From a virus (taxonomy: Duplodnaviria > Heunggongvirae > Uroviricota > Caudoviricetes), in IMG/VR virus record IMGVR_UViG_2545824644_000014: a stretch of DNA of 22,055 nt; one strand, 5' to 3'. Position numbers and translations under genes: made by a program. The notes under the pieces were generated by a model. That model made no database searches. It had not been told where the DNA came from and saw only the letters and a program-made list of their open reading frames with translations. Positions 1,008-10,446 of the stretch are shown in pieces; position 1 is the first letter of the stretch, and each line of letters begins with the position of its first letter.

Positions 1008-1355
1008 TTACTTATCACATAAATCAAATGCAGCCTTAGTGACATCTCCCAGACTCTTTTTTAACCCTGGGGCGGCATCATTATCTAGCCAAAATGGATT
1101 ATTGTTATCTAACGGTAACGCACCAAATGTTTTACCTTTTATTCGAGCCAAACCTGTAAGTGCATATAACTTATTATCGTCAAAATTCATCACATAAGGA
1201 TTACCATCAAGACACTGTAATTGAACCTCATCAGTATTAAATGGCCATACCCCATTGAAACTCTCACGTTCAATAGTTTTAAAAGGCATTGCGACGGCGG
1301 AAAAAGAAAACATAGATAAAAAAGTAACTAATAGTTGAACCTTTTTTACTTTCAT
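1008..1355 (-). CDS. Small secreted protein of unknown function (115 aa, N-terminal signal peptide); lysogeny-side cargo
   Basis: N-terminus MKVKKVQLLVTFLSMFSFSAVA has the basic n-region, hydrophobic core and AxA-like site of a Sec signal peptide. Visibly AT-rich compared with neighbouring phage genes. Same strand as repressor and int. Confidence 0.6.
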   Translation of the reverse strand: MKVKKVQLLVTFLSMFSFSAVAMPFKTIERESFNGVWPFNTDEVQLQCLDGNPYVMNFDDNKLYALTGLARIKGKTFGALPLDNNNPFWLDNDAAPGLKKSLGDVTKAAFDLCDK

Positions 1356-1384: not shown

Positions 1385-2035
1385 TTACAAATTAAAAAAC
1401 GCCCTAGAAATGACACCGCCAACCAAAACCCCTACGCAGATAAAGAATATTATTTCTTTTGGATAAAGTCGGATTAATTCTGAAGCACGAAGTCGGACTT
1501 CTGGTAAGGTCGAACTCTCTGTGTGGCTTGATGCCGATTGTTGCTCTAACCACGACAATGCAGACTGTAACTGAGAACGAGTAAGATCGTTTAAACGTCC
1601 TGTACCGAAATTAATATGGCAATACCGCAGAAGTTTTTGTCGAAGTCCACAGTCTTCACTGTTACGTAGTAATAAACTTACAAGAGCCTTACAGGCATCA
1701 TGATCTTTACATCGCTCAAGCATTGCATGCAGAAAACTCTCCGCTGTTTTATATTGATTTACTGTCATATCATCAATACCAGCTACACCAATCTCCGCAT
1801 GTACTTTTTGCCAAATAATAAACGCTTCAGTATTGCTAGCTTCTGCAATAGCAGCAACCAAGCTATTTAGCTCCTTACGCTGAGCCTTAAGCAAAGGGCG
1901 ATCGTCATCATCATTATTCGAAGGGATTGCGATATTGACAGTATGAGAACCATCATATCGCTCTATCTGAATATTCTTTTCGTGAAAATCACGCCCAGCA
2001 ACGCGATTGTTTGAACCGTTTGAGTTGACGGCCAT
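1385..2035 (-). CDS. Hypothetical protein, 216 aa, with a C-terminal transmembrane anchor; lysogeny-side cargo
   Basis: C-terminus IIFFICVGVLVGGVISRAFFNL is a hydrophobic helix. N-terminal motif NNRVAGRDFHE resembles the C-terminal tail of the upstream repressor. AT-rich. Lies between repressor and int on the same strand. Confidence 0.6.
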   Translation of the reverse strand: MAVNSNGSNNRVAGRDFHEKNIQIERYDGSHTVNIAIPSNNDDDDRPLLKAQRKELNSLVAAIAEASNTEAFIIWQKVHAEIGVAGIDDMTVNQYKTAESFLHAMLERCKDHDACKALVSLLLRNSEDCGLRQKLLRYCHINFGTGRLNDLTRSQLQSALSWLEQQSASSHTESSTLPEVRLRASELIRLYPKEIIFFICVGVLVGGVISRAFFNL

Positions 2036-2050
2036 GTCACCTCCCTACTA

Positions 2051-2455
2051 TCACCTACCCTTAGTTTCGTTATAGTCACGACCAGCGATACGGTTATTAC
2101 CACCAGAAATATTTAACTCACGTCCTGATGGCTGAGTTTCCTTTTCACTGATCGCACCTTTTAAAGCCCCAATCACCGCGTTTTTCACATCTAACGAAGC
2201 TGCTCGAAAGCGAGTAATCAACTCCTGCTCATCATCGTTATAAGTTTCAGGTGAGTGAATCCCCAACACAACATACTGAACATCAAGGCCAAAACGAGAC
2301 AGCGCTGCCAAATACGCAGCATCAGGAAAGCTATCTCCTTTCTCATATCTAAGCTGAGTTAGCTTTTTGACTCCACCAATGTCGCTCATGGCAACTTGAC
2401 TAAGTCCCAATCTTTCCCTTTCCTCACGCAACCGCTGACCAATATCATTTTTCAT
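2051..2455 (-). CDS. XRE-family helix-turn-helix immunity repressor (P2 C-like) with a C-terminal extension, 134 aa
   Basis: N-terminal QRLREERERLGLSQVAMSDIGGVKKLTQLRYEKG is a typical XRE/Cro-C1 HTH. Divergent from the Cox-like gene, in the position of the P2 C repressor. Confidence 0.75.
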   Translation of the reverse strand: MKNDIGQRLREERERLGLSQVAMSDIGGVKKLTQLRYEKGDSFPDAAYLAALSRFGLDVQYVVLGIHSPETYNDDEQELITRFRAASLDVKNAVIGALKGAISEKETQPSGRELNISGGNNRIAGRDYNETKGR

Positions 2456-6274: not shown

Positions 6275-9097
6275 ATGACGGCAGAGTACATCAGGGACTG
6301 GCAACAACCGCGCCACGCAGTGGGGCGTGAAGGAACGGGGATCCCCGCTCCTGAATCCGCGCTTTCCTCCTGGCTGGATGCCTACCGGGTAGAGAACGAG
6401 CGCCGCCAGGAAATGGCTGATGCGGCGTTCTCCGCCACGCCGCTGGGCAACCTGATTAATAAAAGCCTGGACGCACAGGAAAAACAGGACAAAACCATCA
6501 CACTGGCAGGAGACGCCAGAAAACAGGCACGCGGCGCGGTGGATGAAGCCATGGCCTCGCTGCGCCTGCTGCCGTCCTATCTGCGCGATCCGCTTATTCG
6601 CCACCTCTCCTTCCTGCGCAAAAAACAGGAAGCCGATCGCCGGAAAGGCAAAAAGAGCTGGCAGGCGGAACGCTATGCACACGGAACCCTGCGCAAAATA
6701 TTCGAACGTCTGGATAGCACTGACGGACGCTGGCTGACACCGGGTTATCGCTCCCTTGCCGGACGCGAACACCTGGACGATTTGCTTTACCTGCCGCAGC
6801 TCAACAAACACCAGATACAGACGCTGGCCACCATGACGGCGGCGATGTTCAGCAGCACCTTCGAAAAACTCTGCGATGGCTTTGGCGCGACCGATGGCGA
6901 GCTGACCATGGATGTAACCCTGAAGGCGTATCAGATGCTGGCCCGCATGGCGTTACACCTGCACGCCATGCCTCCACATTATGACGCACTGACAACAGAC
7001 AAAGACCGGAGGAACGAACCGGACACGGAGCTGCTGCCGGGCGCAATCCTTCGCCTGACCTGTGCGGAATGGTGGAAACGCAAACTGTGGCTGTTACGTT
7101 GCGAGTGGAGAGAAGAACAACTCCGCGCCGCCTGTCTGGTTTCCAGAAAAACATCACCCTATCTGAGCCAGGACGCGTTAAGCGAGTTTCGCGCACAGCG
7201 CGAGAAAACACGCGATTTCCTGAAAAGTTTCATGCTGGAAAATGAAGACGGGTTCACGATTGATCTCGAGACAGTGTATTACGCGGGAGTAAGTAACCCG
7301 GTTCACCGTAAGGCAGAAATGATGGCCACCATGAAGGGACTGGAACTTCTGGCCGAAGCCCGTGGCGACAAAGCGGTGTTTCTGACTGTCACCTGCCCGT
7401 CAAAATACCACGCCACAACGGAGAACGGTCATCCGAATCCCAAATGGAACGGGGCCACAATGCGCGACTCCAGCGATTACCTGGTTAACACGTTTTTTGC
7501 GGCGGTCCGCAAAAAACTGAACCGCGACGGCCTGCGCTGGTATGGCATCCGCACGGTGGAGCCTCATCATGACGGCACCGTGCACTGGCATATGATGGTC
7601 TTTGCACATCCGGAAGAAATCGACACCATTGTGTCCCATACCCGCGATATTGCCATTCAGGAAGACCGCCACGAGCTGGGCGATGACATAACTCCGCGTT
7701 TTAAGGCGGAGTACGTCGACGGCTCAAAAGGCACGCCAACCAGCTACATCGCCACCTACATCGGAAAGAACCTGGACAGCCGCGCCGTGGATGGCATCGA
7801 CCCGAAAACGGGCAAGCCACGCGTGGACCACGAAACCGGAAAATCAATGGCCGAGAGCGTGGAGCGCGCCATCGGCTGGGCGCGCCTTCACCGGGTCCGT
7901 CAGTTCCAGTTCTTTGGCATCCCCTCCCGTCAGGTATGGCGTGAACTGCGCCGCCTTGCCAGCCAGATGGCACGCAATCCGGAAGGCCCGCAACGGCTGA
8001 AAGATGATGCAATGGATGCGGTACTCGCTGCCGCCGATGCCGGGTGTTTTGCCACCTACATTAAAAAACAGGGTGGCGTGCTTGTTCCACGCAAGGACTA
8101 CCTGATTCGCACCGCCTACGACCTCGCAGATGAGCTGAACGATTACGGCGAACAGAGCGTACAGATTTACGGGATCTGGTCACCACTCATCGGGGAATCC
8201 TCCCGTGTGTGCACGCATCCGGATAACTGGAAGCTGGTAAGACGTAAACCGGAAGCGGAAGACAGCGCCCGCGAAAATGGTTTTGACCTTCAGGGCGGCC
8301 CTGCCGCCCCTTGGACTCGTGGCAATAACTGTCCCCGTGTACAGGAAACGGACAACAACGGGACAGAACAGCCGGAAGAACGGCCAGCACCGTGGCCGCA
8401 GCTCCCTGACGGCGTTGAAGTGAACGAATGGATGCGCTCACTGAAACGGCACGAACGCCGGGCGCTGATGCGTTCGCTTCGTGACAAACAGGCAAAAAAC
8501 AGCAGTGATGAAATGCAGAGCTGGACACAGAGCCGCAAACAGCAGCGGCCTTTGCCTGATAACCACGAATTACTCGCTAAAGAATGGCGGGAGTCTGCTG
8601 AATCTCTCGGCCTGCATATCGGTGAACAACAGATGCAGTACCTGTTACGGGGCGGCAGTCTGTACGTTGACGGCAGCATCATTGCACCGCAGGGATTTGA
8701 AATTGTACGCAAACCGGATACCCGCCCGGACAGCCGAATCACGCAGCTCTGGCAGCGCCTGAGCCGTAATCATGGCGTAAGCAGCACAGAGATCCGCCAT
8801 AACCCGGTCGCCAGCTATCTGGAACAACTGGGGGCATCAGACCCCGAAGCCGCCGCACGTCTGGCATCCACACTTCAGCAGGACCAGAACACCATGAAAA
8901 CACCCGTTACCGTGCTTTCTGACATGCTGCGCGCCATCCGCGACGCAGAGCACGCACAGAGAATCAGTGAAACCACTGAACGCGCCCACCGCAAAGCAGA
9001 CCTGCTGCGGGGTAGCCTGACCAGTGGAAACAAAAAACAGACAGAAACGGGACTCACGAATCCCGTAAATGAGCAAAAAACGCTCAGCGATATATGA
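6275..9097 (+). CDS. A: Phage replication initiation endonuclease (P2 gpA-like rolling-circle Rep), 940 aa
   Basis: HUH-type metal motif VHWHMMVF (codons near 7566-7589). Paired catalytic tyrosines in SYIATYIGK (TAC codons at 7745-7747 and 7757-7759), as in the Y-x3-Y motif of phiX174/P2 A-type initiators. Position is between early genes and the variable locus. Confidence 0.9.
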   Translation: MTAEYIRDWQQPRHAVGREGTGIPAPESALSSWLDAYRVENERRQEMADAAFSATPLGNLINKSLDAQEKQDKTITLAGDARKQARGAVDEAMASLRLLPSYLRDPLIRHLSFLRKKQEADRRKGKKSWQAERYAHGTLRKIFERLDSTDGRWLTPGYRSLAGREHLDDLLYLPQLNKHQIQTLATMTAAMFSSTFEKLCDGFGATDGELTMDVTLKAYQMLARMALHLHAMPPHYDALTTDKDRRNEPDTELLPGAILRLTCAEWWKRKLWLLRCEWREEQLRAACLVSRKTSPYLSQDALSEFRAQREKTRDFLKSFMLENEDGFTIDLETVYYAGVSNPVHRKAEMMATMKGLELLAEARGDKAVFLTVTCPSKYHATTENGHPNPKWNGATMRDSSDYLVNTFFAAVRKKLNRDGLRWYGIRTVEPHHDGTVHWHMMVFAHPEEIDTIVSHTRDIAIQEDRHELGDDITPRFKAEYVDGSKGTPTSYIATYIGKNLDSRAVDGIDPKTGKPRVDHETGKSMAESVERAIGWARLHRVRQFQFFGIPSRQVWRELRRLASQMARNPEGPQRLKDDAMDAVLAAADAGCFATYIKKQGGVLVPRKDYLIRTAYDLADELNDYGEQSVQIYGIWSPLIGESSRVCTHPDNWKLVRRKPEAEDSARENGFDLQGGPAAPWTRGNNCPRVQETDNNGTEQPEERPAPWPQLPDGVEVNEWMRSLKRHERRALMRSLRDKQAKNSSDEMQSWTQSRKQQRPLPDNHELLAKEWRESAESLGLHIGEQQMQYLLRGGSLYVDGSIIAPQGFEIVRKPDTRPDSRITQLWQRLSRNHGVSSTEIRHNPVASYLEQLGASDPEAAARLASTLQQDQNTMKTPVTVLSDMLRAIRDAEHAQRISETTERAHRKADLLRGSLTSGNKKQTETGLTNPVNEQKTLSDI

Positions 9098-9173: not shown

Positions 9174-10133
9174 ATGAAAATTTGTATCGACGACGGCTCC
9201 ACCAACATCAAGCTGGCATGGACTGAGAACGGCGAACGCCGCAACGCCATCAGCCCGAACAGCTTCAAGTCTGAATGGTCTGCGCCGTTCGGTGGCACGC
9301 AGCCCGCGAACTACATGCTTGATGGCGTGCGCTATGGTTTTGATCCGGTCAGCGATCGCTTTGTCCAGACGACCGACACGCAATACCAGTACAGCGATGT
9401 GAATGTCATTGCCATTCATCACGCGCTGGTCAAATCAGGCATCACGCCACAGGAGGTGGATGTGGTTGTCACCCTGCCACTGAGCGAGTATTTCGACACA
9501 AACGCACAGCCGGACATGGCCAACATCAACCGCAAAAAAGCGAACGTTATGCGCCCGGTGGAGTACCAGAACGGCGAAGCATTCACTATCCGTAACGTGC
9601 GGGTTATGCCTGAATCCATTCCGGCTGGCTTTAAGGCACTGGCTGACATGAGTCCTTTTGAATCCCTGCTGATTGTGGATTTGGGCGGAACCACGCTGGA
9701 TGTGGCAAAGGTTCAGGGGCAACTGGCAGGTATCAGCCAGGTGTTTTGCGATCCACACGTAGGCGTTTCTCTGATGGCCGATGCCGTACTGTCGGTGATG
9801 GCCACTAACGGTATGCGCACCAGTCACCACATCGCCAATACCATTATCGAACATCGCCATGATGAAGCCTGGCTGCGCCAGCACATCCACAATGACGCGC
9901 ATTACGCCAGCCTGATGGCGGTTATTCGTGAAAAGGAAGAAACACTGAAACAACGCGTGATCCGCGCGCTGGCGGTTTTTTCGGGTTACGGGCGGGTGAT
10001 GGTTGTCGGTGGAGGGGCGGAGATTGTGGCACCCGCTATCCGCGAAGCCTGCGGAGTTAATGCGACTTTCATCGCGGACGGGGTGCCACAGTTTGCTCTG
10101 GTTAATGGGCTGTACGCAATGGACAAGGAGTAA
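9174..10133 (+). CDS. parM: Actin-like ATPase of the ParM/StbA family (type II partition NTPase homologue), 319 aa
   Basis: N-terminus MKICIDDGSTNIKLAW closely matches R1 ParM as recalled (MLVFIDDGSTNIKLQW). Other recalled blocks also align: YSDVNV..HHAL, MPESIPAG, DLGGTTLD, GVSL, VGGGAE, LVNG. Confidence 0.85.
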   Translation: MKICIDDGSTNIKLAWTENGERRNAISPNSFKSEWSAPFGGTQPANYMLDGVRYGFDPVSDRFVQTTDTQYQYSDVNVIAIHHALVKSGITPQEVDVVVTLPLSEYFDTNAQPDMANINRKKANVMRPVEYQNGEAFTIRNVRVMPESIPAGFKALADMSPFESLLIVDLGGTTLDVAKVQGQLAGISQVFCDPHVGVSLMADAVLSVMATNGMRTSHHIANTIIEHRHDEAWLRQHIHNDAHYASLMAVIREKEETLKQRVIRALAVFSGYGRVMVVGGGAEIVAPAIREACGVNATFIADGVPQFALVNGLYAMDKE

Positions 10134-10137
10134 ACCA

Positions 10138-10446
10138 ATGACGACACCAACCAGACGGATAAGTTTCTATCTGAAGCCCGCCGCCGTCAAGAACGAAGGC
10201 GAAGCATGCGCCTGGCTGGACAGCCTTACACCAGAAGCCCGCAAAAGCGGCCAACGCGTGGCTTTTCTGGCCGGGCTGGCACTTCTGAAAATGAATCCGG
10301 CAGAGGCTTACCGACTGGCTGCATGGGCTGACGATGAGTTGGCCGTGGTACAAAACAGAGTAGAACAGAACGCGCCACAACCAGTACCAACCACACAGAT
10401 AACCAGCCAGATGGCCGGGAATATCCGGGCGTTATTTCCCGAATAA
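10138..10446 (+). CDS. parR: ParR/StbB-like centromere-binding adaptor, 103 aa
   Basis: Starts 4 nt after the parM stop with RBS AGGAG. N-terminal RRISFYLKP...AFLAGLALL and the C-terminal IRALFPE parallel R1 ParR as recalled (RTIAFKLNP...LTAGLAL...LRSLFPKE). Confidence 0.65.
   Translation: MTTPTRRISFYLKPAAVKNEGEACAWLDSLTPEARKSGQRVAFLAGLALLKMNPAEAYRLAAWADDELAVVQNRVEQNAPQPVPTTQITSQMAGNIRALFPE

What the first reader, a model, noticed from the sequence alone, without database searches (positions are those of the whole stretch)
1981..2110. Repressor C-terminal tail and the N-terminus of the downstream membrane protein share the motif NNR[IV]AGRD[YF]
The last residues of the 134-aa HTH repressor (…GGNNRIAGRDYNETKGR) and the first residues of the 216-aa protein (MAVNSNGSNNRVAGRDFHEKN…) carry the same motif. 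The underlying DNA is also similar: TCACGACCAGCGATACGGTTATT at about 2078-2100 against TCACGCCCAGCAACGCGATTGTT at about 1991-2013 match at 17 of 23 positions. This suggests a local duplication or module shuffle linking the repressor to the cargo. The motif could be a shared interaction, cleavage or degron element that couples repressor fate to the membrane protein. The repressor is also longer than the P2 C protein I recall (about 99 aa).
Basis: seen in the sequence. Interest (0 to 1): 0.5.

Follow-up and report, generated by a model that had tools for sequence, protein, structure and literature searches.

The report
Repressor tail matches membrane partner's start
In this P2-like E. coli prophage, and in a wide family of temperate phages, the floppy end of the repressor carries the same roughly 19-residue strand-forming motif as the start of the membrane protein encoded next to it; the two copies change together between phages, which suggests an undescribed physical link between the lysogeny switch and the cell membrane.

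Summary
The repressor tail (aa 114-130) and the N-terminus of the 216-aa protein (aa 3-19) match 10/17 (BLASTP E 2e-5).

It is not a local curiosity. Both copies are conserved in their families. Across 165 related loci, the tail and the start of the next gene co-vary: 24 tail classes and 14 unrelated partner families (cognate versus permuted pairs, z = 11.7).

Named phages show the same match: B3, Ps59, BcepMu, KS10, KS5 and phiE202. Nearly all partners inspected have predicted membrane-spanning segments. The partner in this window has a helical Flk_N domain and a C-terminal anchor.

AlphaFold2 predicts both motif segments as disordered. The motif is rich in G, N, Q and V and poor in L and P. 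Synonymous codons differ between the copies, so selection acts on the protein, not through gene conversion.

Best reading: a matched like-with-like β-pairing adaptor that docks the repressor onto its co-transcribed membrane partner. The gene-pair signature is the one used to find amyloid signalling motifs. Binding, the direction of control and amyloid formation are all untested.

I found no prior description.

The parts
2051..2455 (-). XRE-type HTH repressor gene, 134 aa
   Evidence: ORF. PHROG 8 'transcriptional regulator' E 2.5e-14. Weak Pfam HTH_31/HTH_3 hits below cut-off. Divergent from the Arc-like and Cox-like early genes. Homologues are annotated as repressor in KS10, KS5, Ps59 and Mana.
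2264..2443 (-). Helix-turn-helix DNA-binding domain, aa 5-64
   Evidence: AF2 helices 5-16, 20-27, 31-39, 46-53 and 59-64, pLDDT about 90. Invariant RL.EERER...Q...YE...P columns.
2147..2236 (-). Two conserved helices, aa 74-103 (DE.EL...FR.A...VK.A); this region marks the phage-type family members
   Evidence: AF2 helices 74-85 and 88-103. Alignments A1 and A3. Presence of this helix goes with having a matched partner.
2066..2116 (-). Repressor tail motif LNISGGNNRIAGRDYNE (aa 114-130), inside the predicted-disordered tail (aa 104-134) and followed by the basic end TKGR
   Evidence: BLASTP. pLDDT about 50 or below across aa 101-134, with segments 105-111 and 117-126 below 50. Tail conserved as SG.GNR[VI]AGRD[YF][NH]E.KK in about 50 of the listed homologues.
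2036..2053 (-). Junction: TGA TAG TAG (three in-frame stops), then GGAGG Shine-Dalgarno sequence, then ATG; no terminator-like site found
   Evidence: Sequence. No terminator-like site between 900 and 2800.
1385..2035 (-). Partner gene: 216-aa tail-anchored Flk_N-domain membrane protein
   Evidence: ORF. phrog_5825 E 4e-103. Homologues carry precomputed PF27202, named Flk_N. NCBIfam Flk hit at E 8.6e-16 but far below the cut-off.
1979..2029 (-). Partner N-terminal motif VNSNGSNNRVAGRDFHE (aa 3-19), in a predicted-disordered N-terminal extension (aa 1-45)
   Evidence: BLASTP. pLDDT below about 50 for aa 1-40. G7, N10, R11, D16 and E19 invariant and N4, S5, G14, R15 nearly invariant in 40 homologues. 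N-termini of 120 homologues.
1520..1897 (-). Helical Flk_N domain, aa 47-172, cytoplasmic
   Evidence: AF2 helices 50-67, 71-82, 92-125, 129-143 and 153-172, pLDDT 85-94. NCBIfam Flk aa 37-166.
1397..1453 (-). C-terminal transmembrane anchor, aa 195-213 (IIFFICVGVLVGGVISRAF)
   Evidence: Kyte-Doolittle 19-residue maximum of 2.36. AF2 helix 192-215.
1978..2011 (.). DNA direct repeat, copy 1 (under the partner motif)
   Evidence: the repeat finder family D1: 34 nt, 74% identity, spacing 87 nt.
2065..2098 (.). DNA direct repeat, copy 2 (under the repressor tail motif)
   Evidence: the repeat finder family D1.

Best explanation
The repressor's disordered C-terminal tail and the disordered N-terminus of the co-transcribed membrane protein carry the same 17-30-residue strand-prone motif, rich in G, N, Q and V. 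I propose that like pairs with like through in-register β-type pairing. A share of the repressor would then be docked, via the partner, on the cytoplasmic face of the inner membrane, with the K/R-rich end of the tail lying next to the lipid surface. This couples free repressor concentration, and hence the lysogeny switch of a phage whose repressor has no RecA-cleavable domain, to the state or abundance of the membrane partner. The coupling could equally run the other way. Different motif classes would keep heteroimmune phages in one host from cross-talking. The tail probably also mediates repressor self-association, which the partner mimics. Shown here: the motif, its conservation, its co-variation, its modular transfer between partner families, the predicted disorder, the membrane anchor and the tight gene linkage. 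Inferred, not shown: binding, the geometry of pairing, the direction of control and the physiological outcome.
For: 1. Both copies are conserved. All 120 listed Flk_N homologues (60% identity or more) start M.VNS.G..NR.[AS]GRDF.E. About 50 of the listed repressor homologues end SG.GNR[VI]AGRD[YF].E.KK.
2. Co-variation. Distant loci carry different but matching pairs. Examples: Pectobacterium FNGDISGQFAGNQIINN | FNGTAQGQFSSRDIINI; Jeongeupia TVDYGNAQIGQASAGDIVN | TVSFGGAQIDQAAAGDINN; a Rhodocyclaceae MAG QQINGPISGGVAGRDF | QEINGDVEGGIAGRDI. For 35 non-redundant pairs the cognate score sum is 1268 against 738 +/- 45 for permuted pairs, z = 11.7, and 13 of 35 cognates rank first.
3. Position. In 60 of 109 distinct tails, the best six-frame match in about 5.3 kb lies within -40 to +200 nt of the repressor stop on the same strand. 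Of 71 phage-type family members, 55 exceed the 95th percentile of control regions.
4. Modularity. There are 24 tail classes and 14 unrelated partner families. The NR.AGRD class pairs with 4 families, and the largest partner cluster (the Flk_N proteins and relatives linked to them by BLAST) pairs with 14 tail classes. The match is kept each time.
5. Protein-level selection. Only 45% of identical residues use the same codon. Gene spacing and relative frame are not conserved (26/26/13).
6. Both motif segments are low-confidence (predicted disordered) termini attached to confident folds.
7. 23 of the 27 partners inspected score a transmembrane segment on a hydropathy scan; three of the other four end in a visibly hydrophobic tail below the scan threshold.
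8. Chromosomal Flk lacks the motif, while most phage-type Flk_N representatives have a variant of it.
9. Several motif classes occur within one host: both P. colocasium and P. aeruginosa have two, and Gilliamella has three.
10. Precedent for a maintenance-operon product that binds the repressor: lambda RexA binds CI (10.1101/2021.04.19.439022), and 434 Hex modulates its repressor (PMC3564112).
Against: No binding data exist, and no multimer model could be run. Within the single NR.AGRD class, fine-scale co-variation is weak (z = 1.55, p = 0.077). The co-variation signal is therefore between classes and could partly reflect co-inheritance of whole two-gene modules. A few repressors have a motif-type tail but no matching partner (L021, L164, L165, L033, L059; RSA1 has an IS element in the partner's place). 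The tail must therefore have a role of its own. No fused HTH-Flk_N protein was found among 92 family representatives, so there is no Rosetta-stone support for a complex. The direction of control is unknown.
Confidence: 0.45

Rival explanations
1. Amyloid-like (prion-like) signalling. The two motifs are a templating pair, as in HET-S/NWD2, Bell/NLR BASS pairs or E. coli Bab/Agp. Oligomerisation of one protein nucleates a cross-β assembly that captures the other. Either the membrane partner seeds irreversible aggregation of the repressor, giving RecA-independent induction, or repressor tails released from DNA seed the small membrane proteins into pores, giving abortive infection or lysis timing.
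For: The genomic signature is identical: the C-terminus of the upstream product matches the N-terminus of the adjacent product, and the motif is grafted onto diverse domains. This is the same genomic context described for fungal amyloid signalling motifs and used to define BASS (10.1101/2020.01.06.895854). Composition fits what that paper reports for BASS (enriched in Q, N, G, V, I; depleted in K, P, L): here G x3.2, N x2.75, V x1.8, Q x1.75, L x0.12, P x0.43, K x0.69, with a mean matched length of 19 aa and up to about 30. Similarity that is sustained in register is what parallel in-register stacking requires. A prophage-borne amyloid pair works in E. coli (10.1101/2024.11.07.622273). Many partners are very small 1-2-TM proteins, like membrane-targeting effectors.
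Against: Neither protein belongs to the domain families of known systems (no NLR, TPR, Bell or HeLo domain). The core in the window is only 17 aa and holds a conserved R-D pair. AF2 monomers show no β structure. Constitutive co-expression of both halves in a lysogen would need a safeguard against spontaneous seeding. Fibril formation is untested.
Confidence: 0.2
2. Toxin-antitoxin-like cap. The partner's N-terminal motif drives its own oligomerisation into a harmful or exclusion-active membrane assembly. The repressor tail, a mimic of that motif, caps it. Loss or titration of repressor frees the effector.
For: An XRE-HTH gene followed by a tightly linked small gene is the usual antitoxin-toxin layout. 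Gene gaps range from -4 to +33 nt. Partners are small membrane proteins. One locus has two motif-bearing membrane genes in series. In Mu-like phages the pair sits just upstream of holin and endolysin genes.
Against: The partner has no hit to any toxin or defence family in PADLOC or Pfam. The upstream protein is the phage's main repressor candidate, not a dedicated antitoxin. Toxicity is untested. This reading shares the physical link with the best explanation and differs only in direction.
Confidence: 0.15
3. Third-party recognition. Both motifs are bound by one host or phage factor, such as a protease adaptor, a chaperone or a membrane-targeting factor. The two proteins then share a fate without touching each other.
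For: Terminal, disordered, short linear motifs are typical degrons or chaperone sites. The family-wide core (G-x-[VI]-[AS]-G-x-D-[IFY]-x-N) is loosely shared by many classes, so non-cognate pairs also score above background.
Against: Two or three clearly different classes coexist in the same host species or genus, yet each pair stays internally matched. A single host receptor would hold the motif constant within a host rather than matched within a phage.
Confidence: 0.1
4. Evolutionary residue without present function. The match is left over from gene fission or duplication at the junction, or is maintained by gene conversion, or is a chance match of low-complexity sequence.
For: The two copies are direct repeats 87 nt apart. 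The sequence is G/N-rich. The same-codon fraction (45%) may be slightly above the rough expectation from codon usage.
Against: BLASTP E 2e-5 for the window pair. Cognate versus permuted pairs give z = 11.7. The match persists across Gamma- and Betaproteobacterial phages even though the motif sequences have diverged beyond recognition between classes and the partner families have been swapped. Codons are largely different. The motif residues are among the invariant columns of both families.
Confidence: 0.05

Closest known systems
Amyloid signalling motif gene pairs (fungal HET-S/NWD2; bacterial BASS in Bell/NLR pairs; E. coli Bab/Agp BASS11)
   Same: A short motif is shared by the C-terminus of one protein and the N-terminus of the protein encoded by the adjacent gene. 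The segment is about 20-25 aa, rich in G, N, Q, V and I and poor in K, P and L. It is grafted onto diverse domains. The Bab/Agp example is prophage-borne in E. coli.
   Different: Here the upstream protein is a DNA-binding phage repressor, not a pore-forming Bell or HeLo effector. The downstream protein is a small membrane protein, not an NLR or TPR sensor. The family is confined to phage immunity modules. Amyloid formation is untested. No comparison with BASS1-11 profiles was possible.
Maintenance-operon modulators of phage repressors: lambda cI-rexA-rexB and 434 cI-hex
   Same: Genes transcribed with the repressor in the lysogen encode proteins that bind or modulate that repressor (RexA binds CI; Hex blocks RecA-stimulated cleavage), and a membrane protein (RexB) takes part (10.1101/2021.04.19.439022; PMC3564112).
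   Different: No sequence relationship to Rex or Hex, and no shared terminal motif has been reported for those systems. Here the link is a matched motif that is portable between partner families.
Flk (Fluke/RflH) of Salmonella and E. coli
   Same: A helical Flk_N domain in the cytoplasm is held at the inner membrane by a C-terminal anchor. [quoted passage not shown]
   Different: The phage protein is 216 aa against 333 aa. It scores 58 bits against the equivalog cut-off of 353. Chromosomal Flk proteins start MQP(L/V)SGPG... and lack the motif. Nothing links the phage protein to flagella.
Control of transcription factors by sequestration or aggregation (Mlc-PtsG at the membrane; CTXphi RstC-RstR; VP882 Qtip-cI). 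These examples come from my own knowledge and were not checked here.
   Same: A regulator is inactivated by being pulled away from DNA, to the membrane or into assemblies, without proteolytic cleavage.
   Different: Those partners do not share a sequence motif with the regulator, and none is a conserved downstream gene of the repressor operon.
Type II toxin-antitoxin pairs with XRE-HTH antitoxins (HigA, MqsA, HipB)
   Same: A small HTH protein is followed by a tightly linked gene, and the disordered C-terminal region is the likely contact.
   Different: All TA family hits are far below their cut-offs. The partner matches no toxin family. The HTH protein occupies the repressor slot of the phage.

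Membership tests
Amyloid signalling motif pair (BASS/FASS type) | The same short motif at the C-terminus of one product and the N-terminus of the adjacent gene's product | tested here: met
   Window pair E 2e-5. 55 of 71 phage-type loci matched above the control level. Cognate versus permuted z = 11.7.
Amyloid signalling motif pair (BASS/FASS type) | Length of about 20-25 aa; enriched in G, N, Q, V, I; depleted in K, P, L | tested here: met
   Mean matched length 19 aa, up to about 30. G x3.2, N x2.75, V x1.8, Q x1.75, I x1.1, L x0.12, P x0.43, K x0.69. Criteria taken.
Amyloid signalling motif pair (BASS/FASS type) | One partner is an NLR/STAND or comparable sensor; the other is a Bell/HeLo-type or other cell-death effector | tested here: not met
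   The upstream protein is an XRE HTH. Partners are Flk_N proteins or small TM proteins with no Pfam or PADLOC effector or NLR hit.
Amyloid signalling motif pair (BASS/FASS type) | The motif forms amyloid fibrils, behaves as a prion and cross-seeds its partner | not testable with these tools
   Needs peptides, ThT staining, EM and GFP-foci assays. AF2 monomers show only low-confidence coil.
Amyloid signalling motif pair (BASS/FASS type) | Match to a published BASS1-11 profile | not tested
   The profiles and sequences are not in the text I could read.
Flk_N domain family (Pfam PF27202) | Significant match to the Flk_N profile | tested here: met
   PF27202 is precomputed for 119 of the 120 listed homologues, including P0001 (98% identical), and is named Flk_N. 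The local Pfam copy lacks this model.
Flk (flagella biosynthesis regulator) equivalog NF007987 | Score above the curated cut-off of 353 bits; length of about 330 aa with two repeats | tested here: not met
   58.1 bits over aa 37-166 only. True Flk representatives have two matched stretches and a different N-terminus.
P2 C-type immunity repressor | Sequence similarity to P2 C | tested here: not met
   tblastn against 50,697 phage records at E <= 1e-5 found only Escherichia phage 520873 and Burkholderia, Ralstonia and Pseudomonas phages. The fold is XRE HTH.
XRE-family phage repressor | HTH_3/HTH_31 domain; divergent placement against the early lytic operon, next to int | tested here: inconclusive
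   Pfam hits at 19-23 bits fall below the gathering scores of 23-30 bits, but PHROG 8 gives E 2.5e-14 and AF2 gives a five-helix HTH. The placement criterion is met. Repressor activity itself has not been assayed.
Type II toxin-antitoxin system | The downstream product belongs to a known toxin family; the antitoxin scores above its cut-off | tested here: not met
   MqsA, HipB and Y4mF hits are far below their cut-offs. No PADLOC or Pfam toxin hit for the partner.

The most novel reading that the evidence does not exclude
A prion-like switch governs lysogeny. The membrane partner, or the repressor itself, nucleates a self-propagating cross-β assembly through the matched motif. That assembly irreversibly removes the repressor from DNA, or arms the membrane effector. 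This would give RecA-independent, all-or-none prophage induction or abortive infection in P2-like and Mu-like phages, with motif classes acting as private immunity-specific 'addresses'.
Probability: 0.2. Interest if true: 0.9.

Novelty: new variant of a known kind. Interest (0 to 1): 0.75.

Why it matters
P2-like and many Mu-like prophages are not induced through RecA cleavage of their repressor, and how their switches sense the cell is poorly understood.

A conserved, co-varying, portable motif ties the repressor to a membrane protein made from the same transcript. This gives a concrete, testable handle: delete or swap about 17 residues and watch immunity, induction, repressor localisation and partner toxicity.

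The module is common. It occurs in about 520 of 5,426 complete E. coli genomes, including O157:H7 strains. It is also present in long-studied phages such as B3, BcepMu, KS5, KS10 and phiE202, so experimental systems already exist.

If the pairing proves amyloid-like, it would extend amyloid signalling from cell-death effectors to a transcription factor that controls a viral life-cycle decision. If it is a simple β-zipper, it is still a new kind of modular adaptor whose orthogonal classes could serve as synthetic tethering tags.

Tried and rejected
1. Read-through or frameshift fusion of the two ORFs. In the window they share a frame, but three consecutive stops separate them. Across loci the spacing runs from -38 to +84 nt, and all three relative frames occur. 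Rejected.
2. Gene conversion or recent duplication. The codon comparison rejects it.
3. A third motif-bearing protein, such as an antirepressor, elsewhere in the 22-kb window. None found.
4. Known defence or toxin families. PADLOC, Pfam and NCBIfam gave nothing for the partner or for 10 other partner proteins.
5. Structural relatives of the partner. Foldseek against the PDB gave no match at E <= 0.001.
6. An AF2 model of the two proteins as one chain. No multimer tool is available.
7. Fused HTH-Flk_N 'all-in-one' proteins. None among 92 representatives or among the longer repressor homologues, which are tandem HTH proteins or frameshift products.
8. Fine-scale co-variation inside the NR.AGRD class. 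Weak and not significant.
9. Literature. Searches for the motif string, for Flk plus prophage, for repressor plus amyloid and for BcepMu found no description of this pairing.
Full report
**What is in the window.** The window is the left part of a P2-like prophage of the family Peduoviridae. It is 97.8% identical to Escherichia phage 520873 (genus Xuanwuvirus). The repressor-partner region (1385-2455) is present in about 520 of 5,426 complete E. coli genomes, including O157:H7 strains. On the minus strand lie four genes:
- the integrase (1-1002);
- a DUF2511 protein that starts with a hydrophobic, signal-peptide-like N-terminus (1008-1355);
- a 216-aa ORF (1385-2035);
- a 134-aa HTH protein (2051-2455).

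Divergent from these are an Arc-like gene and a Cox-like gene.

The HTH protein sits in the repressor slot. It hits PHROG 8 at E 2.5e-14. Its homologues are annotated as repressors in KS10, KS5, Ps59 and Mana. It is not detectably related to P2 C.

The two genes are 15 nt apart: TGA TAG TAG GGAGG TGAC ATG. No terminator-like site was found in the scanned region. They are therefore very probably co-transcribed.

**The observation.** BLASTP of the two proteins gives a single significant alignment: repressor aa 114-130 (LNISGGNNRIAGRDYNE) against partner aa 3-19 (VNSNGSNNRVAGRDFHE). It has 10/17 identities, 15/17 positives and E 2e-5. The underlying DNA is a 34-nt direct repeat at 74% identity, spaced 87 nt. 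There is no third copy in the window.

**Conservation.**
- All 120 listed homologues of the 216-aa protein come from Enterobacterales and are at least 60% identical. All begin M.VNS.G..NR.[AS]GRDF.E.
- In a 40-sequence alignment, G7, N10, R11, D16 and E19 are invariant.
- About 50 of the listed repressor homologues end SG.GNR[VI]AGRD[YF][NH]E.KK.
- More distant repressors keep the HTH domain and two following helices but end in different tails that are G/N/Q-rich and then basic.

**Co-variation, the key result.** I fetched 160 loci with a repressor profile, 80 from species-representative genomes and 80 from IMG/VR. I added loci from named phages. Where the tail differs, the N-terminus of the next gene differs in the same way. 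Examples, written as tail | partner start:
- Pectobacterium Mu-like prophage: FNGDISGQFAGNQIINN | FNGTAQGQFSSRDIINI
- Gilliamella: GEGQIAGGNIY | TAEQIAGRDIY
- A Rhodocyclaceae MAG: QQINGPISGGVAGRDF | QEINGDVEGGIAGRDI
- Jeongeupia: TVDYGNAQIGQASAGDIVN | TVSFGGAQIDQAAAGDINN
- Phage B3 ORF18/ORF20: ISVTGDGNRTAGRDFHE | IEVTGSNNIVAGRDFIE
- Phage KS10 gp13/gp12: MVASGSGITQVG | MSASGFGIIQVAG
- Phages KS5 and phiE202: a match of about 28 residues

The statistics are as follows.
- For 35 non-redundant pairs, the summed cognate score is 1268 against 738 +/- 45 for permuted pairs (z = 11.7). The cognate ranks first in 13 of 35 cases.
- In an unbiased six-frame scan of each locus (about 5.3 kb), the best match to the tail lies just downstream on the same strand in 60 of 109 distinct tails.
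- Among family members that keep the conserved helix, 55 of 71 exceed the 95th percentile of control regions, and most of the rest fall just below it.
- The family members without such a tail are mostly chromosomal Pseudomonas paralogues that sit next to a response-regulator gene. They have no partner.

**Modularity.** The 76 distinct pairs fall into 24 tail classes and 14 partner families that are unrelated outside the motif. The NR.AGRD class is attached to four different families:
- Flk_N proteins;
- the two-TM protein B3 ORF20;
- a 140-aa TM protein;
- a 118-aa zinc-ribbon TM protein.

The largest partner cluster (Flk_N proteins and relatives linked to them by BLAST) is attached to 14 tail classes. 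The match to the cognate repressor tail is retained every time.

A simple hydropathy scan finds one or two predicted TM helices in 23 of the 27 partners inspected, and three of the other four end in a hydrophobic tail just below the scan's threshold. One Cellvibrio locus has two successive membrane genes that both start with the motif. Chromosomal Flk proteins lack the motif, whereas most phage-type Flk_N representatives carry a variant.

**Protein level, not DNA level.** Among 630 identical residues in aligned motif pairs, only 45% use the same codon. Gene spacing and relative frame vary. This excludes read-through fusion and recent gene conversion. It means the similarity is maintained by selection on the two peptides.

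Within the single NR.AGRD class the fine-scale co-variation is weak (p = 0.077). The signal therefore lies between classes. Some of it could be co-inheritance of whole modules. That cannot explain why the match survives partner-family swaps.

**Structure.**
- AF2 on the repressor (51-sequence alignment) gives a confident HTH (aa 5-64), two helices (aa 74-103) and a low-confidence tail (aa 104-134).
- AF2 on the partner (40-sequence alignment) gives a low-confidence N-terminus (aa 1-45), a confident helical Flk_N domain (aa 50-172) and a C-terminal TM helix. The hydropathy maximum is at aa 195-213.
- Both motifs are thus short elements in flexible termini.
- The motif is enriched in G (x3.2), N (x2.75), V (x1.8) and Q (x1.75). 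It is depleted in L (x0.12) and P (x0.43). In the repressor it is followed by a K/R-rich end.

**Interpretation.**
- The two sequences stay similar in register rather than complementary.
- The only elements common to all pairs are the repressor and the two motifs.
- Several classes coexist in one host: both Pectobacterium colocasium and P. aeruginosa have two, and Gilliamella has three.

Taken together, these points favour a direct like-with-like association of the two motifs. They argue against recognition by a partner-domain pocket or by a single host factor.

The most economical mechanism is a β-type pairing that docks the repressor onto its membrane partner. This couples the switch to the membrane, or gates the membrane protein by the repressor. 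The basic end of the tail is well placed to lie on the lipid surface. A few repressors have the tail but no matching partner. That suggests the tail first serves repressor self-association and that partners mimic it. All of this is inference. Binding, geometry and direction of control are untested.

**Comparison with what is known.** The genomic signature is the one used to discover amyloid signalling motifs: HET-S/NWD2, the BASS motifs in Bell/NLR pairs, and the prophage-borne Bab/Agp pair of E. coli. The composition matches what those papers report. The domain partners do not match, because there is no NLR and no Bell or HeLo domain, and fibril formation is untested. I therefore file this as 'works possibly like', not as a member.

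Lambda RexA (binds CI) and 434 Hex show that genes co-transcribed with a repressor can modulate it. [quoted passage not shown] The phage protein fails the Flk equivalog cut-off.

I found no paper describing this repressor-partner motif.

**Verdict.** The 'shared interaction element' reading is supported indirectly. 'Recent duplication' is not supported. This is a new variant of the matched-terminal-motif principle, in an unexpected place: a phage repressor and its membrane neighbour. Clear experiments are available in existing model phages.

Noticed in passing
window 9174-10446 (+): A plasmid-type partition cassette sits between the replication gene (6275-9097) and the portal and terminase genes of this integrated P2-like prophage. 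It consists of a ParM/StbA actin-like ATPase (StbA_N E 1.8e-82; ParM C-terminal domain E 6.3e-69) and a Plasmid_stab_B (StbB-like) protein (E 1.4e-23). It has no PADLOC hit.
   Followed up: partly
window 2033-2053 (-): The repressor and partner ORFs are in the same frame. They are separated by three consecutive stop codons (TGA TAG TAG), then GGAGG TGAC ATG. Frame and spacing are not conserved in other loci.
   Followed up: yes
L055 2495-4128 (Cellvibrio MAG): Two successive downstream membrane-protein genes (144 aa and 255 aa) both begin with a version of the repressor tail motif. This gives one repressor and two motif-bearing partners.
   Followed up: partly
L170 1173-2319; L171 1607-2758: In one Flk_N subgroup from Mu-like contexts (a Mor gene is nearby), the repressor has no G-rich tail. 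Instead it has a C-terminal helical domain containing ERL(A/T)RIV(D/E)LLEA. The Flk_N partner starts with (D)ERLAKLA(E/G)(M/L)L. This may be a helical counterpart of the shared strand motif. It was not tested statistically.
   Followed up: partly
L166 (B3), L168 (KS10), L002, L004: In Mu-like phages the repressor-partner pair lies a few genes upstream of the holin and endolysin genes, in the same orientation.
   Followed up: no
L172 1453-3261 (Ralstonia phage RSA1); L021, L164, L165: There are exceptions. RSA1 ORF35 has a motif-type tail but is followed by an IS transposase. Loci such as L021 (Janthinobacterium) and the related viral contigs L164 and L165 have the tail but a 100-aa hydrophobic downstream ORF without the motif.
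   Followed up: partly
L001 1039-3100 (phage 520873, NC_049344): In the deposited genome of the closest phage, the integrase is split into two CDS and the Flk_N gene is broken and unannotated. Only a 115-aa C-terminal ORF remains. This probably reflects frameshift errors or decay in that record.
   Followed up: partly
window 1008-1355 (-): A DUF2511 protein (E 2.3e-06, phrog_2950) that starts with a hydrophobic, signal-peptide-like N-terminus lies between the Flk_N gene and int, in the same orientation. It lacks the motif, and its relation to the pair is unknown.
   Followed up: no
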